NCBI GenBank assembly: GCA_044375625.1
Contig: JBILMH010000004.1
Location: 1 to 61,844 of the forward strand
Reading direction: 5' to 3'
DNA from: Alphaproteobacteria bacterium
Lineage (GTDB): Bacteria > Pseudomonadota > Alphaproteobacteria > CAISOG01
Length of the DNA: 61,844 nucleotides
Positions 15,266 through 54,231 of this stretch are shown here, piece after piece. The position numbers and the translations under genes were made by a program. Every line of letters begins with the position of its first letter. The first letter of the stretch is position 1. The notes beneath the pieces were generated by a model that was given only the letters and a program-made list of their open reading frames with translations, was not told the DNA's origin and ran no database searches.

Positions 15266-16168
15266 TTATTCCGCTTGTTTTTTCTTGGACTTAATCTTCA
15301 GCAAATTTGAAACAGCAGTGTTTAGTTGCGCATCATCTTTCATGGCTTGAGCCATTTTTTCCACTAATTCTGTTAGAACAACACGAATGTCTCTTGCTAA
15401 AAACAAGCATTCATCATCTGTTTTTGCATGTAATCCTTCGCTCAAGGCACTATGAAGAAGTACTAGTGGATTATGTCCGCTAATACGTAATGCTTGAGGA
15501 ATAGCGTGCTTAATTTTTTCTATTGCCTTACTAAATTGAGTTTCTTGTTTTGCAGATTTTAGATCTTCGATTAGTTTTTGATCAGCATTCAGCGTTTCTG
15601 AAACTCTAATTATTTGGTCAAAAATGTTATTTCGTCTTTCTTCGATTATTCGCCTGTAATAGCCAAAAGCACCTATACCAAGTCCTTGTGTTTCGCATCG
15701 CCTTCCTTTGAAGAAATAATCTTTTTCCGATCCAAGTAAACTAACTAATCTTGCGGGGGTTGGCGATCCAAAAGCAGGTCTTTCACCATATTTTACGATG
15801 GACGCTAACGCTGTCTGCTTATCAAGGGTGGCCTCAATAGAAAATGTTTTTCTAACACTTTCACAGTTCTTGCATATATATATTAAAAATTCATGCGAAT
15901 TACCTGATGATCCCAAGTAAATATGATCGTCTTTTGTAGCAAAGAACCGTGGGCCATTACATTGGCCGTCGCTACAATGCAAATTGATTTCAGGTAGGCT
16001 GATTCCTTGAGATGCATTTGATGCATTATAACGATAACAAGATTCAGTCTCTACATGAACGATTTTATCGGGGGGCGTTTCTTCTAGAAATGATTTCATA
16101 GTGATGGGAGTTGCCTCATGAGTAGGCTTTTCTACACTTTTTGCAGACAGCAAATTCTCGTTGTTCAT
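15266..16168 (-). CDS. Hypothetical protein: N-terminal Cys-rich (zinc-ribbon-like) region plus C-terminal DUF4145-like helical domain
   Basis: CSDGQCNGPRFF...CKNCESVRKTF gives two CxxC-type pairs. FFKGRRCETQGLGIGAFGYYRRIIEERR resembles the DUF4145 core. The ATG at 16168 is preceded by GAGGG, while the longer ORF to 16234 runs into the repeat. 20/60 G+C in 15541-15600. Confidence 0.6.
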   Translation of the reverse strand: MNNENLLSAKSVEKPTHEATPITMKSFLEETPPDKIVHVETESCYRYNASNASQGISLPEINLHCSDGQCNGPRFFATKDDHIYLGSSGNSHEFLIYICKNCESVRKTFSIEATLDKQTALASIVKYGERPAFGSPTPARLVSLLGSEKDYFFKGRRCETQGLGIGAFGYYRRIIEERRNNIFDQIIRVSETLNADQKLIEDLKSAKQETQFSKAIEKIKHAIPQALRISGHNPLVLLHSALSEGLHAKTDDECLFLARDIRVVLTELVEKMAQAMKDDAQLNTAVSNLLKIKSKKKQAE

Positions 16169-16228
16169 TTTACCCTCACAGGATTTGAACCTAAAAACAC
16201 TAGGTGAAACATACACGGCCTTTCGGGC

Positions 16229-16269
16229 TACCAAAAGCGTTTTGATGCAAAGGCTTTGCCGGAACCTGT
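16229..16269 (+). repeat. 41-bp direct repeat, copy 2
   Basis: taccaaaagcgttttgatgcaaaggctttgccggaacctgt. It abuts the stop codon of the GIY-YIG gene (16270). Confidence 0.9.
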
Positions 16270-16521
16270 TTAGGGCGCCCTAAAACGCAGTTTTTGAAAT
16301 CTTCGACCCGCTTGTGTTTTCAAATAAGCTTCAAAATCCTGCGCTGTCTTTTTATCACTAAACGCGAAATAGGCATGAAGTTTCCATGGTTGATACTTTG
16401 TGGTGTGCCCAGAATTCCCTTCGGCATTATGTTCTATCAGCCTACGTTTTAAATCCTCGGTAAAACCTGTGTAGAATTTTTCAGGGTGGCTGGCACTTTC
16501 AAGGATGTAGACGTACCACAT
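16270..16521 (-). CDS. GIY-YIG nuclease family protein (small stand-alone URI domain)
   Basis: WYVYILESASHPEKFYTGFTEDLKRRLIEHN is the GIY...YxG...R..EH pattern of GIY-YIG domains. 83 aa. Confidence 0.8.
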   Translation of the reverse strand: MWYVYILESASHPEKFYTGFTEDLKRRLIEHNAEGNSGHTTKYQPWKLHAYFAFSDKKTAQDFEAYLKTQAGRRFQKLRFRAP

Positions 16522-16587
16522 CTGTATTCCTTATCTATTCCGTCACAATCCAATCCTCGCTTTGCTCGGGTTTGTGACGAGAACCTC

Positions 16588-16622
16588 GTCAATCCCAAGA
16601 AAGCGTCGCTTTCTGGATTGAC
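16588..16622 (-). terminator. Long imperfect hairpin immediately 3' of tRNA-Pro (possible terminator/processing structure)
   Basis: On the minus strand, gtcaatccagaaagcg / cgctttcttgggattgac form a ~14-bp stem with a 2-nt bulge, 3 nt after the tRNA 3' end. There is no clear U-tract. Confidence 0.35.
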
Positions 16623-16625
16623 GGG

Positions 16626-16702
16626 TGGTCGGAGTGGCGGGATTCGAACCCACGACCCCTAGCACCCCATGCTAGTGCGCTACCAGACTGCGCTACACTC
16701 CG
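16626..16702 (-). tRNA. tRNA-Pro (anticodon GGG), CCA encoded
   Basis: The reverse complement folds by hand as CGGAGTG TA GCGC AGTCTGGTA GCGC A CTAGC ATGGGGT GCTAG GGGTC GTGGG TTCGAAT CCCGC CACTCCG A CCA. The anticodon loop AT-GGG-GT carries G37. Confidence 0.9.
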
Positions 16703-17822: not shown

Positions 17823-17898
17823 GCCCGCATAGCTCAGCTGGTAGAGCAACCGCCTTGTAAGCGGTAGGTCGTCAGTTCGATTCTGGCTGCGGGCACCA
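17823..17898 (+). tRNA. tRNA-Thr (anticodon UGU), CCA encoded
   Basis: GCCCGCA TA GCTC AGCTGGTA GAGC A ACCGC CTTGTAA GCGGT AGGTC GTCAG TTCGATT CTGGC TGCGGGC A CCA. Confidence 0.92.
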
Positions 17899-18052
17899 GT
17901 CTTCCACCCTATCCCACCCGTTTGATGGTGGCGTGGCAGCTTTGCAGTTTTTCGAATTTGGATTGAACATTTTCTAAGCAGGGTCGGTGAGAACGCACCC
18001 ATAGCCAACAAATGAATTGAAAACCGTTACGTCATACTTTATACTTTATTTT

Positions 18053-19033
18053 ATGAATTACGACAAGCTTACACAAAAGAAACAGCAGCTGGATGGCTTC
18101 AGGCCATTGCCCCCCGAACTCGCCCGCAATCTGGACGATTGGTTCAAGGTTGAGCTTACCTACACCAGCAACGCTATTGAGGGGAACACCCTGACCCGCC
18201 GTGAAACAGCGGTGGTGATTGAAAAAGGGTTGACCGTTGGGGGCAAAAGTCTCAGGGAGCATTTGGAGGCCACCAACCACGCGCATGCGCTGGATTTTGT
18301 GCGATCCCTTATCGAAAAGAAACCGTCACAATTGACGGCCAAGGATGTGCTGGGAATTCACAACCTTATCTTAAAGGGGTTGGATAACGAAAACGCTGGT
18401 CATTATCGCAGCGTGCCGGTTCGCATTTCGGGGGCAGCGGTGGTTTTGCCCAACCCGCGCAAAGTGCCAGACCTGATGGACGATTTTTTGCGCTGGCTTA
18501 CAGCCGAACACGATTTGCATCCCGTCGCCTTTGCGGGGGAAGCGCATTACCGTCTGGTAAGCATTCACCCATTTGTGGACGGCAACGGACGCACGGCGCG
18601 ATTGCTGATGAACCTGCTGCTCATGATGGTTGGCTATCCGCCCGCCATTATCCGCAAGCGTGACCGACTGGCTTATATCGCTTCACTTGAAAAGGCGCAG
18701 CTTGGTGGATCGAAAGAACCTTATGAGAAAATCATCGCCAAGGCGACGGAACGATCGCTTGATATTTACCTTACAGCGGCGCGTGGAGAGTCTGCCGCAG
18801 GGGACGATGGGGATAGCGACGACTTGCTGAAAATCGGCGAACTGGCAAAAGCCGCAGGGGAAACCGTGCCGACCATCCGCTACTGGACAAAAGAAGGGTT
18901 GCTGGAGGTGGCGGAGGTCACCGGGTCAGGCTATCAGCTTTACGCCGCCGACATGGTGAACCGTTGCCAGCAAATTAAAAAGCTGAAGGGCGATCGATTC
19001 ACCCTTCAAGAAATTAAGCAGCGGCTTTCGTAA
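18053..19033 (+). CDS. Fic family protein with N-terminal inhibitory motif and C-terminal MerR-type HTH
   Basis: Fic motif HPFVDGNGRTARLLMN. Upstream SNAIEG matches (S/T)xxxE(G/N). The C-terminal LLKIGELAKAAGETVPTIRYWTKEGLL is MerR-like. ATG 18053 (MNYDKL) is preferred over the upstream alternative start at 18017. Confidence 0.85.
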   Translation: MNYDKLTQKKQQLDGFRPLPPELARNLDDWFKVELTYTSNAIEGNTLTRRETAVVIEKGLTVGGKSLREHLEATNHAHALDFVRSLIEKKPSQLTAKDVLGIHNLILKGLDNENAGHYRSVPVRISGAAVVLPNPRKVPDLMDDFLRWLTAEHDLHPVAFAGEAHYRLVSIHPFVDGNGRTARLLMNLLLMMVGYPPAIIRKRDRLAYIASLEKAQLGGSKEPYEKIIAKATERSLDIYLTAARGESAAGDDGDSDDLLKIGELAKAAGETVPTIRYWTKEGLLEVAEVTGSGYQLYAADMVNRCQQIKKLKGDRFTLQEIKQRLS

Positions 19034-19089
19034 GAAACTTGGTTTAAGTTGCCGCGAACTTGGATATTGCAACACTTTTATCGAGGCAA

Positions 19090-20334
19090 TCAGCCCCAGA
19101 GGGTTGAGATGGGAACAGCAAAAAGCCTGTCACCAAACGGTACGATGTCATGTCCACTGTAAAGCACCACACCGCCGACAAAATCATCTTTTGCTATTTC
19201 TTGCAGCACGCGCATCCCTTTGAAGTCACCACCATCCACTCGATCTGCGGTCTTGACCTCGATGCCCGCCATCGTGCCATCAGGACGCTCCAGCACAAAA
19301 TCCACCTCTTTGTTGTCACTCGTGCGGAAGTGCAGCAACTTTGCACGCACATTGCTGAATGACAGCAGCTTGGTGAGTTCGGTTGCCACAAAGTTTTCCA
19401 GCACATGGCCATAAAGTTCTGGCTTACGCTCACGCATGTCTTCAAGGCGTAAATCAAGCAGATGGCAGAGCAACAACGTATCCACCAAAAATCCTTTAGG
19501 AGATTTGACAAGGCGTTTGCCGATGTTGCGATACCACGGTTCCACATCAAACTGCAGGAACATGGCTTGCAATATGCCGCGATAGGCTTTGCTGGTGACA
19601 GGATTTAACCCTAAGTCCCGGGCAATCTCGGCATCATTCATCAGCTTGCCAGCACGCGATGCCAGCACGCGCAGCAGGTTGGGCAGCATGGCAATCTTTT
19701 CAATTTCGGAAAGCAAGCGCACATCGCGCTGTAAAATGGTGGTAAGATAACTGTCAAACCATTCGGTGCGCTCCACCACGCCTGCACCAGAAATTTCTGG
19801 AAAGGTTGCGCGTGCAATCACCGCATCCAACGACGCTTTCTTGGCAGAAGACTCAAAATCCATCGCAAACAACCGTTGCAGAAAATCGCCTTTCCCACCC
19901 AAGATTTCTGAAGCACTGAATGGGTAGAGCGTTTTGATACTCATACGCCCCACCAACGGGTCAGAGAGTTTAGGCAACGCCATGATGTTGGCAGATCCCG
20001 TAAGCAGGAATCGTCCGTTACTGTGTTTTTTGTCCTTTAACCTGATTTCATCTACCACCAGTTTCAAGGCACGAAATATCTCTGGCACGATTTGCACTTC
20101 GTCGATTATCATCGCGCCTTTACGGCTTTTAAGAAAACTCTCAGGCGAACTCGCCGCCGCCGCCATTTGCGTTGCATTATCAAAGCTGACATAGCCAGCC
20201 GGAAAGTCTTTTTTGTTTAAGTGCTGCACCAGCGTGCTTTTGCCAGCCTGGCGTGGGCCGTTTAAAAAGACCACAGGATGGTTCTTAAGCGCAAACAGCA
20301 GGTTATCTGTTAATTTACGAGGCGTGGTTTTCAT
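19090..20334 (-). CDS. AAA-type ATPase with DUF4143-like C-terminal domain
   Basis: Walker A GPRQAGKSTL and Walker B-like MIIDEVQ. The C-terminal half (VDFVLERPDGTMAGIEVK) resembles the restriction-endonuclease-like DUF4143 region common to this family. Confidence 0.8.
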   Translation of the reverse strand: MKTTPRKLTDNLLFALKNHPVVFLNGPRQAGKSTLVQHLNKKDFPAGYVSFDNATQMAAAASSPESFLKSRKGAMIIDEVQIVPEIFRALKLVVDEIRLKDKKHSNGRFLLTGSANIMALPKLSDPLVGRMSIKTLYPFSASEILGGKGDFLQRLFAMDFESSAKKASLDAVIARATFPEISGAGVVERTEWFDSYLTTILQRDVRLLSEIEKIAMLPNLLRVLASRAGKLMNDAEIARDLGLNPVTSKAYRGILQAMFLQFDVEPWYRNIGKRLVKSPKGFLVDTLLLCHLLDLRLEDMRERKPELYGHVLENFVATELTKLLSFSNVRAKLLHFRTSDNKEVDFVLERPDGTMAGIEVKTADRVDGGDFKGMRVLQEIAKDDFVGGVVLYSGHDIVPFGDRLFAVPISTLWG

Positions 20335-20479
20335 GGCAGCTCCCTATTTGCAATTATAAAGATAGCATTTATAAAAACAAAAGGCAAAGTTTGGTTTTGC
20401 AATATCAGCCTAAGCTGGAACGCGACAATATCGGGGGGCGTTGGGCTATCGGTCAAGGGCTGAATTCATTCGGACGCCT

Positions 20480-20498
20480 TAACATCAGGAGCTGGAGG
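20480..20498 (+). repeat. Exact 19-bp direct repeat, copy 1 (taacatcaggagctggagg)
   Basis: Identical to 21924-21942. Together they bracket the 2-gene AT-rich cassette. Confidence 0.9.
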
Positions 20499-20568
20499 TG
20501 TGCGTTACGCCAGCCTCTTGAAGTTTCTCTCGCAGAAGCCTTGAAGTAGCCAGAAGAAGTTTGATATT

Positions 20569-21246
20569 TCACATCACCACTTTAGCTATATCGCTCAGGC
20601 CACCTAAAATGAGTTTCTTTGGCACTCCTGGTGCGGCGTTAATCTCCAGCGTGTCAGTAAGTGTGTGATTGACATTATTTACGGCAAACGCATCAGCATC
20701 TTTAGCAAAAGCGATCCTATGTTCTTTCTCATCTGAGAAACGTTTGTTTTTGGACATTATAATTTTGTCAGGACAAACGTATCTTACCCCAGGCTCTTCA
20801 TCAAAGTCGTAGTATTCAACATTATCAGATAAAATTTTTCTATTTTTGATATTGTGCGCGGATTTTCTTAAATGTCGTGAAATACGGTTACTAAATTCTT
20901 GTACATCTGATATTTCAATGCAGCCGTCAGCACCAAACTTTTGGAACAAGGTTTTGCTGAGCTCAAGGCTTGTGCAAAAAACAAATACACGGTCTGGTCG
21001 CCTTACTCGTGATATTAGCCCGCGATGGCCTTTAAGTTTTTGGTTATTTGCTGAGATTGTAATTTCTAAACCATTCGACGGCATGTAAACATTAGCATCT
21101 TCAGTAATATCAATTCTTGCCAAATCTTCGCATGATAGAAAATAGGACAGCGTGTTGAAGAAAACTTCTCCATTATGCAAAAATTTTTCCAAATGTGACT
21201 TGTCACAAAAATACTTAAAAACAGAATATTTTCTATGATTCAGCAT
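20569..21246 (-). CDS. Hypothetical protein, DUF2971-like by motif order
   Basis: VFKYFCDKSHLEKFLHNGEVFFNTLSYF, VFVFCTSLELSKTLFQKFGADGCIEI and KNKRFSDEKEHRIAF follow the order of conserved blocks I associate with DUF2971. Its start overlaps the upstream stop (TAATG). Low G+C. Confidence 0.55.
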   Translation of the reverse strand: MLNHRKYSVFKYFCDKSHLEKFLHNGEVFFNTLSYFLSCEDLARIDITEDANVYMPSNGLEITISANNQKLKGHRGLISRVRRPDRVFVFCTSLELSKTLFQKFGADGCIEISDVQEFSNRISRHLRKSAHNIKNRKILSDNVEYYDFDEEPGVRYVCPDKIIMSKNKRFSDEKEHRIAFAKDADAFAVNNVNHTLTDTLEINAAPGVPKKLILGGLSDIAKVVM

Positions 21247-21728
21247 TATTCGCTGCGCTCCTTATCGGCAGCTTCCCAATATATATCTTCTATTGCCCTT
21301 GAGGAAATTAATCCGCAATTCATAAAATCTAGGAAATTGCCACAATCCCTCAAAGTTTGAATGCTGTACCGTGTTGATACGGCAAATGCTTTAGGATCAG
21401 ATGCGGCATGACTAGAGATGGCATTGTCATCGTCATAGAATGATTGAAACTCATTCCACTCATCGGCTGTTTTTAGCGGAAGCTTTCTCAATTTCTTTTT
21501 CTGCTCACCAACTAATTGTTTATGCATCATATATGAGCTTAATAAATGAGCAGGAATGTTTTTAATACGTTCAAGCCAAACTACTAGGGGGAGGCCTATA
21601 GCCAAGGCCAAAAATGCGACAAGAAAATTCGCGTCAGCGGTTTCTGAAATTATCCATGCTAGCAAAGCACTAGTAATTAGTGAGAATACCCACCTTAAAG
21701 TTTTGAATTTTAGCTGTACGAATTCCAT
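21246..21728 (-). CDS. Hypothetical membrane protein (2 N-terminal TM helices plus a soluble C-terminal domain)
   Basis: WVFSLITSALLAWIISE and FLVAFLALAIGLPLVVWL are hydrophobic helices. 21/60 G+C in 21301-21360. First gene of the 2-gene cassette. Confidence 0.6.
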   Translation of the reverse strand: MEFVQLKFKTLRWVFSLITSALLAWIISETADANFLVAFLALAIGLPLVVWLERIKNIPAHLLSSYMMHKQLVGEQKKKLRKLPLKTADEWNEFQSFYDDDNAISSHAASDPKAFAVSTRYSIQTLRDCGNFLDFMNCGLISSRAIEDIYWEAADKERSE

Positions 21729-21923
21729 AATGTTTACCCAATATGTTTTCCTAAAATTTTCTCTGGAGATAGCTGTGCACTTGTTTTCTCACGAGTGCAC
21801 GGCCTCGGTAGAGAGAACGCCATGCAAAAGAATTAAGATACGCACAAAAAGACCAGAATTTCTATGCAGGCTACTCATATTTCAGCAGGATTACAAGAAA
21901 TGATTAACCTGCTGATTACTTTC

Positions 21924-21942
21924 TAACATCAGGAGCTGGAGG
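21924..21942 (+). repeat. Exact 19-bp direct repeat, copy 2, overlapping the last ~6 nt of tRNA-Ser
   Basis: taacatcaggagctggagg. Positions 21937-21942 belong to the tRNA-Ser 3' end. Confidence 0.9.
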
Positions 21943-22028
21943 AGACGGAGGGATTCGAACCCTCGATACGGTATAACCCGTATAACGGTTTAGCAAACCG
22001 TCGCCTTCAGCCGCTCGGCCACGTCTCC
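21937..22028 (-). tRNA. tRNA-Ser (anticodon GCU), long variable arm
   Basis: The reverse complement is GGAGACG TG GCCGAGCGGCTGAAGGCG ACGGT TTGCTAA ACCGT TATACGGGTTATACCGTATC GAGGG TTCGAAT CCCTC CGTCTCC T CCA. Confidence 0.9.
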
Positions 22029-23913: not shown

Positions 23914-24095
23914 GGCAGGCCTTTTAGGGTACGAACAGGGGGCTCTATCCCCTTTTTAAAAAGGAGAGGAAGATAAAGTGGAAGCGGCATCATTCCAAAC
24001 CCTTTGTAGCCGATGCTAGGACAAAAAGCCACCACCACCTGTGTTGACAAAAATGATGACAATACCCGATGATAATTTTTTTTAAGGAGAGTCTT

Positions 24096-24962
24096 ATGCA
24101 ACCAATCCAGGATCGACCTGCACCATTTTTTAATGGATTTCTAGCTATTGGATTCGTGGTATTCTTGCTTTTAATCTTTTATGTCAGCTTTCCAGTTTAC
24201 AATCAAATTAAACAGAATGCACCTGTTACAATTTTGTTGCTACCAATTATCGTTGCGGTAATAGCAATAATTTCAACAGGTTTTACCATTATTCAACCCA
24301 ACGAATCCAAAGTGTTAACATTTTTTGGAAAATATGTTGGTACGCTTAAGCAAAGTGGATTTCTGTTTACTTTTCCGCTTTCGGATAAGAAAAGCGTGCC
24401 ACTTAAACTTGTTAACTTTGTTACCGATCATCTTAAGGTCAATGATCGAAACGGCAATCCCATTGAAATCGGCGCCGTTGTTGTTTGGCGCGTCATGGAT
24501 GCCGCTCAATCCTCCCTAAATATTGATGATTACAAGACTTTTGTTGCCAATCAAAGCGACATTGCTGTTCGCGCTTTGGCCGCACATTATCCCTATGATT
24601 CCGAGAAAGAAGTTTCCCTAAGGGGTAATCTTGATGAAATAGCCTCAAAACTTAAAGATGTTTTACAAGAAAAATTGGCGATAGCGGGCATTGTTGTTGA
24701 AGAAACCAAGCTTAGCCATCTTGCCTATGCTTCAGAAGTCGCTGCTGCTATGCTCAAACGACAACAGGCTGTGGCAATTTTCGATGCACGTCAATATATG
24801 GTCGAAAATGCTTTGGCGATTATTGATGATGTAATGAAGCATTTTGAAAAAAATAATAATGTTAAATTCTCAGATGATAAAAAAGCAGAACTTATCAACA
24901 GCTTATTGATCGTCATGACATCTGACAAAGAAGCTAATCCAGTTTTGTCAATAGGAAAATAG
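24096..24962 (+). CDS. SPFH/band-7 domain protein
   Basis: N-terminal TM region, then IIQPNESKVLTFFGKYVGTLKQSGFLFTFPL and a C-terminal helical region (AAMLKRQQAVAI). AAGGAGA RBS 5 nt before the ATG at 24096. 20/60 G+C in 24181-24240. Confidence 0.8.
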   Translation: MQPIQDRPAPFFNGFLAIGFVVFLLLIFYVSFPVYNQIKQNAPVTILLLPIIVAVIAIISTGFTIIQPNESKVLTFFGKYVGTLKQSGFLFTFPLSDKKSVPLKLVNFVTDHLKVNDRNGNPIEIGAVVVWRVMDAAQSSLNIDDYKTFVANQSDIAVRALAAHYPYDSEKEVSLRGNLDEIASKLKDVLQEKLAIAGIVVEETKLSHLAYASEVAAAMLKRQQAVAIFDARQYMVENALAIIDDVMKHFEKNNNVKFSDDKKAELINSLLIVMTSDKEANPVLSIGK

Positions 24963-24966
24963 AGAA

Positions 24967-25386
24967 ATGAATGAAATATTAAATGACAGCGCAAAAATTA
25001 CTTTCTTCGTAATGCTATTCATCATATATTCTGAAATAGCCACGGCGATAATATTTTTGATTAAGGCAAAAAACTTTGTTTATAATGCCAAAACTGTAAA
25101 AGCAGAGGTTATTAAAATCACTAAATTTAGAAAAGAATCGCAGGTTCTTATTCAATTTAAAGATCCGCTGGGAAAGCTACATGAGAAAACAATAGGGGTT
25201 CCTATTTGTACGCTTGAAGAAAAAGACATTATAGAAATTCTTCATGACAACAAATCGGATAAGGTTAAATACAAATCATTTCTTTCTTTATGGACAATTC
25301 CTTGCTTGTTTATCTTTTCCGCATTTACAACATCACTGATTTTAATATTTTTAACTTATGCGGGCATTGCAAATTCACCTTTTTAG
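24967..25386 (+). CDS. Small membrane protein, TM / beta-rich domain / TM topology (DUF3592-like)
   Basis: ITFFVMLFIIYSEIATAIIFLI, a ~70-aa soluble segment, then LWTIPCLFIFSAFTTSLILIFLTYAG. It starts 5 nt after the SPFH stop. Confidence 0.55.
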   Translation: MNEILNDSAKITFFVMLFIIYSEIATAIIFLIKAKNFVYNAKTVKAEVIKITKFRKESQVLIQFKDPLGKLHEKTIGVPICTLEEKDIIEILHDNKSDKVKYKSFLSLWTIPCLFIFSAFTTSLILIFLTYAGIANSPF

Positions 25387-49236: not shown

Positions 49237-50556
49237 ATGAACCCTGCTGCCAGCTCTATCCCCGCCTCCGCCAACCCTGGTGCATCGCCCGCGCTGTCGC
49301 CGCTGACCAATCCCCATTTGATTGGGTTGGAGGCGCCTGTTCACCAGCTGCAACAGGCCTTGACGGCGGGGCGGTTGGCGGGATCCTGGTTGCTGACGGG
49401 GGAAGCGGGGGTGGGTAAGGCGACGTTGGCATTGCGGCTGGCTCGCTATCTGTTGGCGGGATCACTGGGTGCACCCCAACCTGGTCAGGATGTTTTTGCC
49501 AACCACAGCCCCGCCGCCGATTCGGTACAGGACTTGGGCTTGTTTGGGGATCTGTTGGCCAGCCCCGCGCCCGAACTTTTCCCTGCTTCAACCCCTGATC
49601 CAGCCCCTCAGGCCGTCTCTCAGCAAGCCGCCGTTCCCGACCTAAAGACAGAAACCGCCTTTGCCCTGGCCGCTGACCACCCGGTTTTTCAGCAGGTCGC
49701 CAATTTGTCGCATCCCGATTGCTGCGTGGTGATGCCCGAAGCCACTGGCCAAAGCGGCAGGTTGACCATCACCATTGAGCAAATTCGCCGCTTGACCGAT
49801 TTTCTGCGGCTGGCGGCGGGGCATGACGGCTGGCGCGTCGCCCTGGTCGATCAGGCGCACAGCATGACCCGTCAGGCGCAAAACGCCCTGCTGAAATCTC
49901 TTGAGGAGCCGCCCGCCCAAACCCTAATCCTGCTGACCACCCCGCTGCCCAGCGCGCTGTTGCCGACCATTCGTTCGCGCTGCCGCCGCCTGAGTATTCC
50001 TGCCCTTAGCGGGGATCAGGTGCGGCAGGGGTTGGCGTTGCTGTACCCCGATTATCCGCCCTTGCCCACGGATCTGCAGGCCAGCTTTCGCCTGACCACC
50101 ATTGGCCAGGCCGCCCGCTTTTTGGTGACGTTATGGCCTGGCTATCAATCGCTGTTAGAGCTATTGGGGCGCAGCGGCGAACCCAATTTTCATTTGTTGC
50201 AGCAATGGCGCAAAAGCCTTAGCCCGCTGACCAGTGGCAGCACCCTGCCGCTGGAGTCAGAACTGATGAACCTGTTGATGCAGCGGTGGTTGCGCAGCTT
50301 TGCCCTAAGCGCCGACCAAAGCGCTGCCGCAACGCCCACCGCTCCCCTGTTGGCGCAGGAGGCGGCGTTGTTCTCACGGCTTAGCCTAGGCAATGGTGGA
50401 CAAGCCTCCATCAGCGGCCACGCCCTTGGCCAGCGCCAGGCCGCCGTGACCCGCTGGTTGCAGGAGGGGGCGGCCAGCAACCTTGATCCCGCTGCCATCA
50501 GCTGGCAAGCCCTAACCCTGATTTACGGCCTCAACCCCGCCAACCAAGCCGCCTAG
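49237..50556 (+). CDS. holB: DNA polymerase III subunit delta' (with long insert)
   Basis: GRLAGSWLLTGEAGVGKATLALRLARYLL, NALLKSLEEPP and TIRSRC. Confidence 0.88.
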   Translation: MNPAASSIPASANPGASPALSPLTNPHLIGLEAPVHQLQQALTAGRLAGSWLLTGEAGVGKATLALRLARYLLAGSLGAPQPGQDVFANHSPAADSVQDLGLFGDLLASPAPELFPASTPDPAPQAVSQQAAVPDLKTETAFALAADHPVFQQVANLSHPDCCVVMPEATGQSGRLTITIEQIRRLTDFLRLAAGHDGWRVALVDQAHSMTRQAQNALLKSLEEPPAQTLILLTTPLPSALLPTIRSRCRRLSIPALSGDQVRQGLALLYPDYPPLPTDLQASFRLTTIGQAARFLVTLWPGYQSLLELLGRSGEPNFHLLQQWRKSLSPLTSGSTLPLESELMNLLMQRWLRSFALSADQSAAATPTAPLLAQEAALFSRLSLGNGGQASISGHALGQRQAAVTRWLQEGAASNLDPAAISWQALTLIYGLNPANQAA

Positions 50557-50561
50557 GCCGC
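50538..50561 (+). repeat. 24-bp direct repeat, left copy (last holB codons plus stop: cgccaaccaagccgcctaggccgc)
   Basis: 21/24 identical to 52337-52360. It ends one nucleotide before the stop codon of the first cassette gene (50562). Confidence 0.8.
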
Positions 50562-50960
50562 CTATTTTTTTACAAAATGCGCTTTTTCTGCAAGTTCTGT
50601 CGCTACCACCCTCATTAGTGATTTTTCAGATGGCACAGCTTTGATATTCGCATGTTTTGGATGCCCAACACCGTCTACCAGCACTTGCAAGAAACCTCCC
50701 ATGCCGTTAGCAATTTTTTGAACCTCAGCTACCTTCAGATCCGCACGAGCCAACACCTCTTTATCCGTTCTAATTCTAGAACCAATATCCCAGATACTTT
50801 CCTCAGAACACTCTGTTACTAAAAATACAGAAATCTCATTAGGATATTTAGAGTTAGGCATAAAGACATTGTGCTTAATGGGATTGCTCCTAAGCCAATC
50901 CCGTTCAAAAATGTAGCGGGCAATTTTGTCAGCATCAGAAGCGGGGTAATCTAGAGTCAA
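50562..50960 (-). CDS. Hypothetical protein, third gene of the AT-rich three-gene operon
   Basis: 132-aa ORF. Its TTG start overlaps the upstream TGA (TTGA). No motif recognised. Very low G+C. Confidence 0.6.
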   Translation of the reverse strand: MTLDYPASDADKIARYIFERDWLRSNPIKHNVFMPNSKYPNEISVFLVTECSEESIWDIGSRIRTDKEVLARADLKVAEVQKIANGMGGFLQVLVDGVGHPKHANIKAVPSEKSLMRVVATELAEKAHFVKK

Positions 50961-51520
50961 CTGGCAAAACCCTCTATTAAATTCAGCAAATTCAATACTT
51001 CTTCAGGCAATTTGTTGCCGAACTGAACATCGCCAAATAAGCGACCATGTGGGCTAACACCCCCCCATTCTATCCGATCATTTTCATTAACACCAATCAC
51101 GACATGATAGCCACGTTTTTTCCAGACCATTGACAGAGCGCCATCTGGTTCAGCACAAATTTCTGGGCAAGAAATATGTTCTGGCAAAAAACTCAAAAAC
51201 AAAAGAGTTTTTTCAAAAAAAATCTCTTTAACTGGTTCGGCATCATAGCCATCCCAATCTCGAGCAGAATAATTTTCTCTTATAAAATTCAATTCACCAA
51301 ATATATCTCTTTTCCTAAATGAAATTGATTGATCTTTTTCTTTATCAATTTTCTCTAAAGATTTTGATATGAACTTAGATGATGGGTTGTATACATCACG
51401 CACATCATGGCCTGTACGTGACAATCTATAACGACCTCTATTAATAGAAAAATTTGTCTGAGCAGAAAAATTTCTGCTAAATTCCATTGGTATTTCATAT
51501 GTTGCACAATTTACTCTCAT
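50957..51520 (-). CDS. Hypothetical protein with DWDGYDAEP motif, second gene of the operon
   Basis: 187-aa ORF. Its ATG overlaps the upstream TGA (ATGA). The C-terminal half has ARDWDGYDAEPV...AEPDGALSMVW, a pattern I have seen in uncharacterised small bacterial and phage proteins. Confidence 0.65.
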   Translation of the reverse strand: MRVNCATYEIPMEFSRNFSAQTNFSINRGRYRLSRTGHDVRDVYNPSSKFISKSLEKIDKEKDQSISFRKRDIFGELNFIRENYSARDWDGYDAEPVKEIFFEKTLLFLSFLPEHISCPEICAEPDGALSMVWKKRGYHVVIGVNENDRIEWGGVSPHGRLFGDVQFGNKLPEEVLNLLNLIEGFAS

Positions 51521-52284
51521 GAAAATAAATCCTGCGCATTTGGTAAATTAGAGAAAAATATATGGTTTTTAAAAAGACGCAATCTTTCTAAGGTGTCATA
51601 TATATTGCTATAATTTTCATATTCGAAATAATCTTGGTCGTTTTTTACGTCAATATCCATAATAATTTTTAATTTTTCTTCTTCTGGCTTTATTGTCAAT
51701 AAAACAACCGCTTGCGCTGTGTATTTTAATGAATTTAAAACGTACCTTGAAAAAATTTCTGAAACACCTATTTCAGAACTATCATAATCTGATCTGCCAC
51801 GAAAAAACGATCCCATTAGAAGATTTTTATGCCAATCTTCCTTATTCAAATAAAAACTGTTTATATATCTTAATGATAAATCGTTTATTTTTGATACAAT
51901 AATATTATTAGAAAAAATTTCCCAATATTTCTTATACTCATCAGAAAAATTTTCCCAGGAAATATAAGGTTTCAACTTGTTAAAAATGAGTTTATTTTTG
52001 CTGCAATGCAAATAATTCTGAATATCATCAGAAAACAAAAAACCTATCTTTTCGTTTGTGCTATTATGTGAAAAATTTGTTCCATCTTCACCAAAGTTAA
52101 TGGCGGAATGAAATTGTCGCCATTCTTTTTTGTTTGGATAAAAACCTTCGAAAGCCTTAAAAATTTTTTCAAGGCTTTCTGTTGATACATCTTTATTATG
52201 CTCAACGCCTACACTGATAACCGCCTCCTCAATCGGAGGAGATTTAAGCTTCGGATACTTTCTTCTTAACGCAAGTTCGGACAT
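51517..52284 (-). CDS. Hypothetical protein, TIGR04255-like N-terminus, first gene of the operon
   Basis: 255-aa ORF. YPKLKSPPIEEAVISVGV resembles the start of the uncharacterised TIGR04255 family (recognised from memory, not searched). 16/60 G+C in 51541-51600. Confidence 0.65.
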   Translation of the reverse strand: MSELALRRKYPKLKSPPIEEAVISVGVEHNKDVSTESLEKIFKAFEGFYPNKKEWRQFHSAINFGEDGTNFSHNSTNEKIGFLFSDDIQNYLHCSKNKLIFNKLKPYISWENFSDEYKKYWEIFSNNIIVSKINDLSLRYINSFYLNKEDWHKNLLMGSFFRGRSDYDSSEIGVSEIFSRYVLNSLKYTAQAVVLLTIKPEEEKLKIIMDIDVKNDQDYFEYENYSNIYDTLERLRLFKNHIFFSNLPNAQDLFS

Positions 52285-52336
52285 GATAACTCCCTATGCC
52301 TACAATAGCACAAAGAAAATGAAATTCCATGGGAAT

Positions 52337-52360
52337 CGCCAGCCAGGCGGCCTAGGCCGC
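52337..52360 (+). repeat. 24-bp direct repeat, right copy (cgccagccaggcggcctaggccgc)
   Basis: A relic-like copy of the holB 3' end including TAG. It lies 52 nt beyond the start codon of the cassette's first gene. Confidence 0.8.
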
Positions 52361-52431
52361 TGCACACACCCCCTAAGCCAACCGCAAAACTGCTTGCAAA
52401 ATGACTGGGCAAAGGCAATCGCTTTGGCCTA

Positions 52432-52581
52432 TATAGTTGTTCCAATTTAGAAATATACGGCCTGCGAAAATATTACGAGGTCGAGAAACGGAGCGGGAGT
52501 GTACACGGACGTACATGAGCACCGTATCGCAGAGATCGTAATATTTGCAGCACTGTAGATTTCTAAAGGGGAATGACTATA
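52432..52581 (-). mobile_element. MITE-like element, copy B (inverted relative to copy A)
   Basis: The reverse complement aligns end to end with 14480-14628, with the same terminal inverted repeats and TA flanks. It lies 48 nt upstream of the preferred metG start. Confidence 0.85.
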
Positions 52582-52629
52582 GTTATCGACAACCTTAATG
52601 ATTTTATAGCCCAACAAAAGTTCACAACC

Positions 52630-54231
52630 ATGACCACGCCCCCCGCCAAATCCGCCGCCACTGTGCAAAAAGGCTGTTTGATTACCACCCCGATCTACTA
52701 CCCCAACGCCGCCCCCCACCTGGGGCATGCCTATTGCGACGTCGCCGCCGATGTGCTGGCGCGCTATTACCGCTCAACGGGGCAGACGGTGTTGTTGCTA
52801 ACCGGCACCGATGAGCATGGCCAAAAGATTGCCCGCGCCGCCGCCGATAAGGGCATCAGCCCGCAGGCGCATGTGGATGAGCAATCGGCGCATTTTCGTG
52901 ACCTGGCCGCCACCCTGACCATGTCCAACGACGATTTTATTCGCACGACAGAGCCGCGTCATCATCACGCTGCCCAAGCTTTCTGGCGGGAATTGGCGGC
53001 CAGCCATGCCCCCGATGGCCAGCTCAATGTCTATTTGGGTCACTACGCCGGCTGGTATTCCGCCCGCGATGAGACCTTTTTCCAAGAGGCCGAACTGGTC
53101 GATGGCAAGGCGCCCACCGGCGCGCCCGTGGAGTGGACGGAGGAGGCAACCTATTATTTCCGCCTATCCGCCTGGCAAGACCGCCTGCTGGCCTATTTTC
53201 GCCAATATCCCGACGCCATTCAGCCCGCCAGCCGCCGCAACGAAGTCTTGGCCTTTATTGAGCGCGGCCTTACCGATTTGTCCATCTCCCGCACGGGGGT
53301 CAGCTGGGGGATTCCCGTGCCCGACGCCCCCGGCCATGTCATGTATGTGTGGACAGACGCGCTGGTCAACTATTTGACCGCCATTGATTTTCCAAACAGG
53401 GATAGCCAACTGTTTCAGCAGTTTTGGCCAGCCAAGCTGCATCTGGTCGGCAAGGATATCATCCGTTTTCACTGCATCATTTGGCCTGCCATGTTGATGG
53501 CGGTTGGCCTGGAACCGCCCCAACAAGTGTTCGCCCACGGCTTTTTCATCAGCGGCGGCCAAAAAATGTCGAAATCGATCGGCAATGTGGTGGATCCGTT
53601 TGAGCTGGTGCGCCACTATGGCGCCGACAGCTTTCGTTTTTATGTGATGAGCGAGTTTGCCTTTGGCCAGGATGGCGATTTTCAGGAGGCGAATTTGGCG
53701 CAGCGCCACAACAGCATGTTGGCCAATGATTTGGGCAATCTAAGCCAACGCAGCCTGTCGATGCTGCAGCGCTATCTGGGCGGTGTCGTGCCAGCCTGGC
53801 CTGATGCGGCGCGGTTGGAGGCGGCCGATAACGCCCTGCTGACCCTGGCCAGCCAAAATCTGGCGCTGTATCATCAGGCCATGACGGAGCTGGCCTATCA
53901 TCGCGCGCTTGAGCTGATTTGGCAGGTTATCACCGCCGCCAACCAATATGTCGATACCCAGGCACCGTGGAGCCTGCATAAACAGGGCTCTGCCCGCCTG
54001 CCCATCGTGCTGCGCGTGCTGACGGAGGTGTTGGCGTGGCTATCGGTGCTGCTGACCCCCTTTATGCCGGGGTCGATGGCCGCCTTGCAAGCCAACCTGC
54101 AATTGCCAAGCGATCGCGCCAACCTGGTCGCGTTGACCAGCCATCGGCCGCTGTTGCCGGATGGCGCAACGCTGACGCCGCCTACCCCGCTGTTCCCACG
54201 GTTGGATCTTGCCGCGCTGACGGAGGCTTAG
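52630..54231 (+). CDS. metG: Methionine--tRNA ligase
   Basis: ITTPIYYPNAAPHLGHAY (HIGH-type motif), GQKMSKSIGN (KMSKS) and WPAKLHLVGKDIIRFH. The ORF-track start at 52573 lies inside the MITE, so ATG 52630 is preferred. Confidence 0.95.
   Translation: MTTPPAKSAATVQKGCLITTPIYYPNAAPHLGHAYCDVAADVLARYYRSTGQTVLLLTGTDEHGQKIARAAADKGISPQAHVDEQSAHFRDLAATLTMSNDDFIRTTEPRHHHAAQAFWRELAASHAPDGQLNVYLGHYAGWYSARDETFFQEAELVDGKAPTGAPVEWTEEATYYFRLSAWQDRLLAYFRQYPDAIQPASRRNEVLAFIERGLTDLSISRTGVSWGIPVPDAPGHVMYVWTDALVNYLTAIDFPNRDSQLFQQFWPAKLHLVGKDIIRFHCIIWPAMLMAVGLEPPQQVFAHGFFISGGQKMSKSIGNVVDPFELVRHYGADSFRFYVMSEFAFGQDGDFQEANLAQRHNSMLANDLGNLSQRSLSMLQRYLGGVVPAWPDAARLEAADNALLTLASQNLALYHQAMTELAYHRALELIWQVITAANQYVDTQAPWSLHKQGSARLPIVLRVLTEVLAWLSVLLTPFMPGSMAALQANLQLPSDRANLVALTSHRPLLPDGATLTPPTPLFPRLDLAALTEA

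What the first reader, a model, noticed from the sequence alone, without database searches (positions are those of the whole stretch)
50538..52360. AT-rich, translationally coupled three-gene operon inserted into the conserved tmk-holB-metG cluster and bracketed by a duplicated holB 3' end
Seen in sequence:
- Three minus-strand ORFs (51517..52284, 255 aa; 50957..51520, 187 aa; 50562..50960, 132 aa) overlap by 4 nt at each junction (ATGA, TTGA).
- There is essentially no non-coding DNA inside the block.
- Composition is sharply foreign: 16/60 G+C in 51541-51600 against 42/60 in holB at 49261-49320.
- The 24 nt holding the last holB codons plus stop (50538-50561) recur at 52337-52360 at 21/24. 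The cassette starts one nucleotide after the left copy.

Established knowledge: tmk-holB-metG adjacency is a widely conserved housekeeping arrangement in Proteobacteria.

Inference:
- This is a site-specifically inserted cargo module with no recombinase of its own.
- The first protein starts like the uncharacterised TIGR04255 family.
- The second carries a DWDGYDAEP motif seen in uncharacterised small proteins.
- The third has no motif I recognise.
- I can see no nuclease, ATPase, toxin or HTH signature.

Tight coupling, cargo-like position and absence of recognisable enzymology make this the best candidate in the window for an undescribed accessory system. It could be a defence, abortive-infection or toxin-antitoxin-like module.
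Basis: partly seen in the sequence, partly recalled or inferred. Interest (0 to 1): 0.82.

Follow-up and report, generated by a model that had tools for sequence, protein, structure and literature searches.

The report
Three-gene TIGR04255-led candidate defence cassette
An AT-rich three-gene operon wedged between two housekeeping genes belongs to a widespread but uncharacterised family of mobile gene cassettes, probably a phage-defence or toxin-antitoxin-like system, and its parts are only weakly related to an untested defence candidate called PDC-M32.

Summary
Three coupled minus-strand genes (34% G+C against 56% for the rest of the window) sit between holB and metG. They are bracketed by a 24-nt direct repeat (21/24) that occurs nowhere else in the window.

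The block is not an orphan.
- P1 is a full-length TIGR04255-family protein. Its predicted fold is a TBP-like double repeat.
- P2 (WDGYxA...EPDG...W domain) and P3 (invariant Ser; near-invariant Arg, Arg, His) form a pair found next to each other in about 50 unrelated MAG loci. They follow a TIGR04255 gene in 29 of these, usually with the same 4-nt overlap.
- P3 has 2,564 relatives (50%-identity clusters).
- P2 and P3 relatives weakly hit PADLOC's untested candidate PDC-M32 A and B.
- TIGR04255 also leads a non-homologous pair (helical protein plus Cys/His DUF7689).

The genes are under purifying selection (dN/dS 0.08-0.31), yet the block is 5-15 times more diverged at synonymous sites than its flanks. 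One strain carries an IS in P1. One viral contig and one plasmid carry related cassettes.

Function is untested. A TA-like or abortive-infection defence module is the most likely reading. No recombinase was found, and the flanking repeat is specific to this lineage.

The parts
50538..50561 (+). Left copy of the 24-nt direct repeat. It holds the last holB codons and the TAG stop (50554-50556).
   Evidence: The sister strain L001 has the equivalent copy with a TAA stop.
50562..50960 (-). P3, 132 aa. Small protein of a large uncharacterised family. Ser44 is invariant; Arg15, Phe33, Pro35, Arg72 and His103 are near-invariant. Putative effector.
   Evidence: (2,564 related clusters). Relatives weakly hit PDC-M32B. 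dN/dS 0.24.
50957..51520 (-). P2, 187 aa. Variable N-terminal region followed by a conserved C-terminal domain of about 100 aa (W89-D-G-Y-x-A94 ... E-P-D-G127 ... W133). Obligate partner of P3.
   Evidence: Eight of 11 relatives hit the C-terminal part of PDC-M32A. dN/dS 0.31. The ATGA start overlap is conserved in L001.
51517..52284 (-). P1, 255 aa. TIGR04255-family protein, predicted as two TBP-like beta-alpha-beta4-alpha repeats.
   Evidence: NCBIfam 81.7 bits against a cutoff of 30, profile positions 1-241 of 252. AlphaFold2 pLDDT 73, pTM 0.71. Top Foldseek hit is TBP at probability 0.93 but TM only 0.25-0.34. dN/dS 0.08.
52285..52336 (-). Leader of the operon, with a Shine-Dalgarno AGGGAG at 52290-52295. 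No convincing sigma-70 promoter was found.
   Evidence: Sequence. Promoter scan not above the shuffled expectation.
52337..52360 (+). Right copy of the direct repeat (21/24), with a palindromic core GCGGCCTAGGCCGC.
   Evidence: The L001 and L030 right copies read ...CCTAAGCCGC.
50560..52700 (.). Stretch that is 83-93% identical to the sister strain in nearly all 100-nt bins (one bin, 51700-51799, is 98%), while both flanks are mostly 96-100% identical. It covers the cassette plus the intergenic DNA up to the start of metG.
   Evidence: Sliding identity between the window and L001. dS 0.30-0.48 in the cassette against 0.03-0.06 in holB and dacC.

Best explanation
Shown:
- The block is a horizontally acquired, self-contained three-gene operon of a widespread family.
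- The constant core of that family is the adjacent P2-P3 pair.
- In about 60% of sampled loci, and here, the pair is led by a translationally coupled TIGR04255-family protein with a TBP-like double-repeat fold.
- TIGR04255 genes elsewhere lead other, non-homologous two-gene pairs.
- In this lineage the operon sits at the 3' end of holB, between two copies of a 24-nt sequence that includes the holB stop codon.

Inferred:
- It is a conflict system, meaning a toxin-antitoxin-like or abortive-infection phage-defence module.
- P3 (small, with an invariant Ser and near-invariant Arg, Arg, His) would be the effector.
- P2 would bind and restrain or deliver P3, and is made in fixed proportion through the overlapping start.
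- P1 would be the sensor or regulator. Its saddle-shaped beta-sheet would bind a nucleic acid, a small ligand or a phage protein.
- The insertion arose from a recombination event that duplicated the holB end. The recombinase acted in trans or has since been lost.
For: Gene order and coupling:
- P1-P2-P3 co-occur in the same order in Endozoicomonadaceae (P1 40% identical) and in Nitrospirota, Chlamydiae, Planctomycetota, Deltaproteobacteria and Thiotrichales.
- In a motif scan of genomes, about 50 true P3 genes nearly all had P2 directly upstream. Twenty-nine also had TIGR04255, mostly with a 4-nt overlap.
- About 18 loci had a different first gene of 220-250 aa.

Link to a defence candidate:
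- P2 relatives hit PDC-M32A (8 of 11, best 4.4e-5). P3 relatives hit PDC-M32B (4 of 12, best 3e-3).
- PDC systems are untested candidates found embedded in BREX, DISARM or type I RM loci.

Modularity:
- TIGR04255 also precedes a helical protein plus the Cys/His protein DUF7689 in 9 loci, including an archaeon and candidate-phyla bacteria.
- These pairs are not homologous to P2 or P3.

Mobility and conflict-type signals:
- The cassette is lower in G+C than its flanks by more than 5 points in 34 of 56 loci and never higher by more than 5.
- A complete cassette lies on an IMG/VR viral contig.
- A TIGR04255 cassette sits beside a type I RM system on a Crinalium plasmid.
- An XRE-ImmA/IrrE pair lies directly upstream in L089.
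- One strain has an IS30-like insertion in P1.

Selection: dN/dS is 0.08-0.31, with dS 5-15 times that of the flanks.

Repeat: real and unique in the window.
Against: - There is no functional evidence.
- No catalytic fold could be assigned to P3. Its model has pLDDT 56 and Foldseek found nothing.
- The window's own P3 does not hit PDC-M32B. Its P2 hits only the C-terminal 66 residues of PDC-M32A, at E 5e-3.
- Neighbours of 50 or more cassettes are heterogeneous: 118 Pfam families among 127 proteins, and only a few defence hits, with no background rate to compare against.
- P3 gave no tblastn hit in 72,556 plasmids or 50,697 phage genomes.
- There is no DNA-binding antitoxin-type domain.
- The P1 fold match is at topology level only (TM 0.25-0.34).
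- No empty site was found in a close relative, and no integrase was found.
Confidence: 0.5

Rival explanations
1. It is a purely selfish addiction (toxin-antitoxin) module. It persists by post-segregational killing and has no role against phages. P3 is the toxin, P2 the antitoxin, and P1 an accessory stabiliser or regulator.
For: Small, overlapping, co-transferred genes with patchy distribution across phyla. Lower G+C than the host. Housekeeping rather than defence-island contexts.
Against: It sits on the chromosome in a core locus, where addiction gives no obvious benefit. One strain tolerates an IS in P1 and a break in P3. There is no antitoxin-type DNA-binding domain. The PDC-M32 link comes from embedding within defence loci.
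Confidence: 0.2
2. It is an accessory module unrelated to conflict. For example, a ligand-binding protein with a helix-grip or TBP-like fold (P1) and two partner proteins could act in stress response, small-molecule handling or regulation.
For: P1's fold class includes START/Bet v1-type ligand binders. Neighbourhoods are mostly housekeeping. No toxin or nuclease signature was found.
Against: The distribution is sporadic and horizontal, with no conserved metabolic neighbours. The pair downstream of TIGR04255 is swappable. Related cassettes occur on a viral contig and a plasmid. The block diverges between strains faster than its flanks.
Confidence: 0.2
3. It is a decaying remnant of a larger integrative element or prophage, with cargo left behind after the integrase was lost and no current function.
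For: Direct repeats that duplicate a gene's 3' end with no recombinase present. An IS disrupts the cassette in one strain. A related cassette lies on a viral contig.
Against: All three ORFs are intact in many metagenomes: 8, 5 and 8 allelic variants in the 90% clusters. dN/dS is 0.08-0.31. The same compact three-gene unit occurs in dozens of unrelated genomes without phage genes around it.
Confidence: 0.1

Closest known systems
PADLOC phage defence candidate PDC-M32 (genes A and B), from Payne et al., bioRxiv 10.1101/2024.01.29.577857
   Same: An adjacent pair in which the larger first protein ends in a P2-like domain (profile positions about 270-368 of 375) and the second is a small P3-like protein (123 positions). 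The matches recur across family members. Both are untested.
   Different: The matches are weak (E 1e-3 to 4e-5). The window's own P3 has no hit. P2 lacks the N-terminal 270 positions of PDC-M32A. A separate TIGR04255 gene leads the operon. The cassette is not embedded in BREX, DISARM or RM here.
NCBIfam TIGR04255 family (uncharacterised, sporadically distributed; 'sporadTIGR04255')
   Same: P1 matches the whole model well above its cutoff.
   Different: The family has no assigned function. No paper in the library mentions it. Its role as the first gene of three-gene cassettes with interchangeable downstream pairs was found here, not taken from any annotation.
TIGR04255 + helical protein + DUF7689 (PF24738) cassettes
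   Same: The same first-gene family, the same three-gene coupled layout and the same sporadic distribution.
   Different: Genes 2 and 3 are not homologous to P2 and P3 (hhalign probability 1.6% or less). DUF7689 carries invariant Cys and His residues that suggest a thiol enzyme.
Type II and tripartite toxin-antitoxin systems (for example toxin-antitoxin-chaperone systems)
   Same: Small overlapping genes, co-inherited and horizontally mobile, with the putative neutraliser encoded upstream of the putative toxin (own knowledge of TA architecture).
   Different: No known toxin or antitoxin family matches. There is no DNA-binding domain. Toxicity is untested.
Integrative islands that target the 3' end of a gene and restore it with a duplicated att core
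   Same: A 24-nt direct repeat that includes the holB stop codon brackets foreign-composition DNA.
   Different: There is no integrase. The block is only 1.8 kb. The repeat is imperfect. Other family members lack flanking repeats.

Membership tests
TIGR04255 (NCBIfam) | Whole-protein HMM score at or above the curated cutoff, with near full-length coverage | tested here: met
   81.7 bits against a cutoff of 30; E 7.1e-23; residues 12-245 on profile positions 1-241 of 252.
PADLOC PDC-M32 | Gene A matches a PDC-M32A model over most of its length | tested here: not met
   Window P2: E 5e-3, only residues 90-155 on profile positions 277-342 of 375. The best relative scores 4.4e-5, also in the C-terminal part only. 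P1 and the alternative first genes do not hit the N-terminal part.
PADLOC PDC-M32 | Gene B matches a PDC-M32B model | tested here: inconclusive
   Window P3 has no hit at E up to 1. Four of 12 relatives hit at 3e-3 or weaker, and L122's P3 at 3.9e-4, covering positions 18-114 of 123.
PADLOC PDC-M32 | Found embedded in or beside BREX, DISARM or type I RM loci (the basis on which the candidates were defined) | tested here: not met
   In the window the cassette lies between holB and metG. Type I specificity subunits were seen in only 2 of about 50 related loci. A Crinalium TIGR04255 cassette does lie beside a type I RM system.
Type II toxin-antitoxin system | Adjacent, co-transcribed small genes with overlapping or abutting reading frames | tested here: met
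   4-nt overlaps here and in most relatives.
Type II toxin-antitoxin system | Membership of a recognised toxin or antitoxin family, or an antitoxin DNA-binding domain | tested here: not met
   No Pfam, NCBIfam, PHROG or PDB-sequence match for P2 or P3 or their families.
Type II toxin-antitoxin system | The toxin arrests growth and the cognate antitoxin neutralises it | not testable with these tools
   Requires expression experiments.
Integrase-mediated genomic island | Flanking direct repeats (attL/attR) that duplicate the target | tested here: met
   21/24 repeat, unique in the window, 0 of 100 shuffles. Also present in sister strain L001.
Integrase-mediated genomic island | A site-specific recombinase gene within or beside the element | tested here: not met
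   The three genes fill the block. Its neighbours are rlpA, dacC, tmk and holB on one side and metG, dnaQ and terC on the other.
Integrase-mediated genomic island | An unoccupied site in close relatives | tested here: inconclusive
   All three sampled strains are occupied (window, L001, ZLKRG11). Both metagenome scans returned nothing, including a control pattern for the holB end itself, so that collection does not hold this lineage. Only family-level relatives show an uninterrupted holB-metG.
TBP-like fold | Two tandem beta-alpha-beta4-alpha repeats forming a saddle, with significant structural similarity to TBP-domain proteins | tested here: inconclusive
   The predicted secondary-structure order fits. 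Foldseek's top hit is TBP 3oci, at probability 0.93 but E 5e-3 and TM 0.25-0.34.

The most novel reading that the evidence does not exclude
TIGR04255 proteins would be the shared sensor or hub of an unrecognised superfamily of three-gene immune systems. Their effector pairs would be interchangeable: P2/P3 of the PDC-M32 type, or a helical protein plus the Cys/His enzyme DUF7689. The systems would span bacteria, candidate-phyla bacteria and archaea, and P3 would define a new toxin or effector fold.
Probability: 0.3. Interest if true: 0.75.

Novelty: new variant of a known kind. Interest (0 to 1): 0.55.

Why it matters
If the cassette is a working immune or toxin-antitoxin system, three things follow.
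- It would give a function to TIGR04255, a catalogued family with none.
- It would give a function to P3, a very large family (2,564 clusters at 50% identity) that is absent from Pfam.
- It would show a hub protein that recruits alternative effector pairs.

Every sampled locus comes from an uncultured organism except the related cassette on the plasmid of the cultured cyanobacterium Crinalium. That would explain why screens based on cultured isolates have missed it. The compact 1.8-kb operon is easy to clone and test.

Tried and rejected
- **Word-indexed protein searches** made P2 and P3 look like orphans, with 2-4 hits. The exhaustive profile search showed this was a sensitivity artefact.
- **PDB sequence and profile searches** for P1, P2, P3 and DUF7689 found nothing significant. 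A weak eIF4E match to the P3 stretch 'AFxP..SVxR..EExIWxIG' recurred (E 0.1-0.2). It is noted only as a lead.
- **The P3 AlphaFold2 model** was too poor to use (pLDDT 56), and Foldseek on it was uninformative.
- **Foldseek of P1 against viral models** returned only unnamed proteins.
- **The alternative first genes** (alignments A11, A12) could not be linked to TIGR04255 by hhalign.
- **The search for related loci** with the P2 and P3 alignments failed or found nothing. A hand-made degenerate DNA pattern replaced it.
- **The empty-site search** in metagenome contigs returned nothing, even for the control pattern.
- **Integron cassette** was considered and rejected: no attC-like long imperfect inverted repeat and no integron integrase.
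- **A general att site for the family** was rejected: flanking repeats exceed the controls only in this lineage.
- **Promoter and terminator scans** were not above the shuffled expectation.
- **Rfam** found no RNA family in or beside the block.
Full report
**1.
- The three minus-strand ORFs are P1 51517..52284 (255 aa), P2 50957..51520 (187 aa) and P3 50562..50960 (132 aa). They overlap by 4 nt at both junctions and leave no internal non-coding DNA.
- The ATGA overlap between P1 and P2 is conserved in the sister strain.
- The cassette is 34% G+C (P1 29%, P2 35%, P3 41%). The rest of the window is 56%, and holB and metG are about 62%.
- The 24 nt at 50538-50561 contain the holB stop codon. They recur at 52337-52360 with 21/24 identity. 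No other copy exists in the window at up to 3 mismatches, and no shuffle gave two matches.
- P3's stop codon begins one base after the left copy. An AGGGAG Shine-Dalgarno sequence lies 5 nt upstream of the P1 ATG.

**2. Host and site.**
- Flanking proteins are 96-97% identical to freshwater alphaproteobacterial MAGs. One is labelled Holosporaceae bin-11545 and the other Alphaproteobacteria ZLKRG11.
- The same cassette at the same site occurs on many metagenome contigs. The 90% clusters hold 8, 5 and 8 allelic variants for P1, P2 and P3.
- A sister strain (L001) carries it with P1 93%, P2 82% and P3 84% identical. Its flanking proteins are 96-98% identical.
- Two Acetobacteraceae MAGs have rlpA-dacC-tmk-holB-metG uninterrupted. 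No empty site was found in a close relative, and the metagenome collection that could be scanned does not contain this lineage.
- In the ZLKRG11 MAG, an IS30-like element interrupts P1 after codon 41. The 3' end of P3 gives way to foreign DNA after about 100 nt. The cassette is therefore dispensable in at least one strain.

**3. Selection and history.**
- Between the window and L001, dN/dS is 0.08 (P1), 0.31 (P2) and 0.24 (P3). All three are therefore real genes under constraint.
- dS is 0.30-0.48 in the cassette against 0.064 in holB and 0.031 in dacC.
- Sliding identity falls from 96-100% to 83-93% exactly at the holB stop. It recovers only at about 52,700, some 340 bp beyond the right repeat.
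- The block, including the metG leader, therefore has a different history from its flanks. Allelic exchange with a more distant carrier or faster evolution would both explain this.
- Both repeat copies read TAG in the window and TAA in L001. That suggests gene conversion or separate events.
- Across about 30 related cassettes, flanking direct repeats exceed cross-locus controls only in this lineage. The repeat records this insertion and is not an att site of the family. No recombinase is present.

**4. What the proteins are.**
- *P1* is a full-length TIGR04255-family protein (81.7 bits against a cutoff of 30). No paper in the library mentions that family.
  - Its AlphaFold2 model (pLDDT 73, pTM 0.71) is two tandem beta-alpha-beta4-alpha units.
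  - Foldseek's best PDB hit is the TATA-box binding protein, followed by START/Bet v1-type proteins. TM scores are low (0.25-0.34), so only a TBP-like or helix-grip topology can be claimed.
- *P2 and P3* have no Pfam, NCBIfam or PDB-sequence relatives, either singly or as families.
  - P2 has a variable N-terminal region. Its conserved C-terminal domain reads W-D-G-Y-x-A ... L-P ... E-P-D-G ... W.
  - P3 has an invariant Ser44 and near-invariant Arg15, Phe33, Pro35, Arg72 and His103. Its model was too poor to use.
  - An exhaustive profile search found 2,564 P3-related clusters at E up to 1e-3, of which 1,436 reach 1e-10. All of the 150 listed hits are 98-194 aa, mostly 120-160 aa.

**5. The genes travel together.**
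- All three genes occur in the same order in an Endozoicomonadaceae MAG and in Nitrospirota, Chlamydiae, Planctomycetota, Deltaproteobacteria and Thiotrichales MAGs.
- A degenerate DNA pattern for the P3 motif HPxHANIxxWP found 58 genomic loci, of which about 50 hold true P3 genes.
  - Nearly all had P2 directly upstream.
  - Twenty-nine had TIGR04255 before P2, almost always with a 4-nt overlap.
  - About 18 had a longer P2 preceded by one of two other families of 220-250 aa. Homology of those families to TIGR04255 could not be shown.
- P2-P3 is thus the constant core, and the first gene varies.
- Conversely, TIGR04255 also leads a helical protein of about 150 aa plus DUF7689, which has invariant Cys and His. 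This layout occurs in 9 loci, including Methanoregula and candidate-phyla bacteria. It leads yet another pair on a Crinalium plasmid beside a type I RM system.
- The alternative pairs are not homologous to P2 or P3.

**6. Link to known candidates.**
- Eight of 11 P2 relatives hit PADLOC's PDC-M32A, in its C-terminal 100 positions only (best 4.4e-5).
- Four of 12 P3 relatives hit PDC-M32B.
- PDC systems are 145 untested candidates defined by being embedded in BREX, DISARM or type I RM loci.
- The only paper that names PDC-M32 merely reports PADLOC hits in Sinorhizobium prophages.
- The window's cassette is therefore a distant, three-gene relative of that candidate. It does not meet membership by score.

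**7. Context elsewhere.**
- The neighbours of about 50 cassettes are heterogeneous: 118 Pfam families among 127 proteins.
- Defence-type hits are scattered: type I specificity subunits, capP-like peptidases, PsyrA, PDC-S01 and mad5.
- One locus has an XRE plus ImmA/IrrE pair directly upstream on the same strand.
- One IMG/VR viral contig carries a complete P1-P2-P3 next to a tail-fibre-like gene.
- P3 has no tblastn hit in the plasmid or phage genome collections.
- Every genomic hit is a MAG.
- The cassette's G+C is more than 5 points below its flanks in 34 of 56 loci and never more than 5 above.

**8. Interpretation.**
- The evidence shows a mobile, modular, selectively maintained three-gene unit.
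- Its features are typical of conflict systems: sporadic phyletic spread, low G+C, combinatorial swapping of partners, occasional phage or plasmid carriage, IS disruption in one strain, and fast divergence between strains.
- I therefore favour a toxin-antitoxin-like or abortive-infection defence module, with P3 as effector, P2 as its partner and P1 as sensor or regulator (confidence about 0.5).
- The roles of the individual proteins are inference only. The rivals are a purely selfish addiction module, a non-conflict ligand-binding module, and inert cargo of a decayed element. None is excluded, but each fits less of the evidence.

Noticed in passing
window 52432-52581: A unit of about 150 bp bounded by 27-nt inverted repeats (81% complementary) lies upstream of metG. 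It is present in the window and L001 but missing from the ZLKRG11 contig L030, so it looks like a miniature inverted-repeat element. The longest metG ORF start (52573) falls inside it. The real metG start is probably further downstream, because matches to other metG proteins begin at residues 6-37.
   Followed up: partly
L030:1-1207 and L142:2433-2540: In the ZLKRG11 MAG, an IS30-like transposase element cuts P1 after codon 41. The 3' end of P3 runs into unrelated DNA after about 100 nt. The cassette is disrupted in that strain.
   Followed up: partly
window 50554-50556 and 52353-52355; L001 about 2612-2614 and about 821-823: The stop-codon position in both repeat copies co-varies by strain: TAG/TAG in the window and TAA/TAA in L001. 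Other repeat positions disagree within a strain. Gene conversion between copies or separate insertion events could explain this.
   Followed up: partly
window 15266-16702: An AT-rich islet (38-42% G+C) lies beside tRNA-Pro (16626-16702). It holds a 322-aa protein with no Pfam match and an 83-aa stand-alone GIY-YIG protein.
   Followed up: partly
window 17823-22028: Between tRNA-Thr and tRNA-Ser lie a Fic-MerR fusion protein (18017-19033), an AAA_14/DUF4143 ATPase (19090-20334) and two abutting AT-rich ORFs with no Pfam match (20569-21246 and 21246-21728; 37-39% G+C). This is a second accessory island in the window.
   Followed up: partly
window 24069-25386: An AT-rich pair (30-37% G+C): an SPFH/Band 7 protein of 297 aa followed 4 nt later by a 139-aa hydrophobic protein with no Pfam match.
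   Followed up: no
L012:827-2530, L015:107-1739, L022:5983-7635, L028:5983-7602 and others: A second three-gene layout: TIGR04255, then a helical protein of about 150 aa (HPAYQxIIGMG...HWFWAL..ITGxDP), then DUF7689 with invariant Cys30 and His101 (YNCIAWA...THAARQ). It occurs in bacteria, candidate-phyla bacteria and a Methanoregula MAG.
   Followed up: partly
L089:1092-4323: An XRE-type HTH gene and an ImmA/IrrE metallopeptidase gene lie directly upstream of a first-gene/P2/P3 cassette on the same strand. This resembles the CapH/CapP-type regulator pairs seen with defence systems (comparison from own knowledge).
   Followed up: partly
L141:4983-6602: An IMG/VR viral contig carries a complete TIGR04255-P2-P3 cassette next to an 847-aa tail-fibre-like gene.
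   Followed up: partly
window 50562-50960 (P3 residues 47 and 109): The window's P3, together with L001 and the Endozoicomonadaceae copy, lacks two residues that are conserved in 56 and 55 of 59 relatives (Arg47 is Leu, Trp109 is Val). The window's P1 also departs from the family at eight well-conserved positions. This clade is a divergent branch of the family.
   Followed up: no
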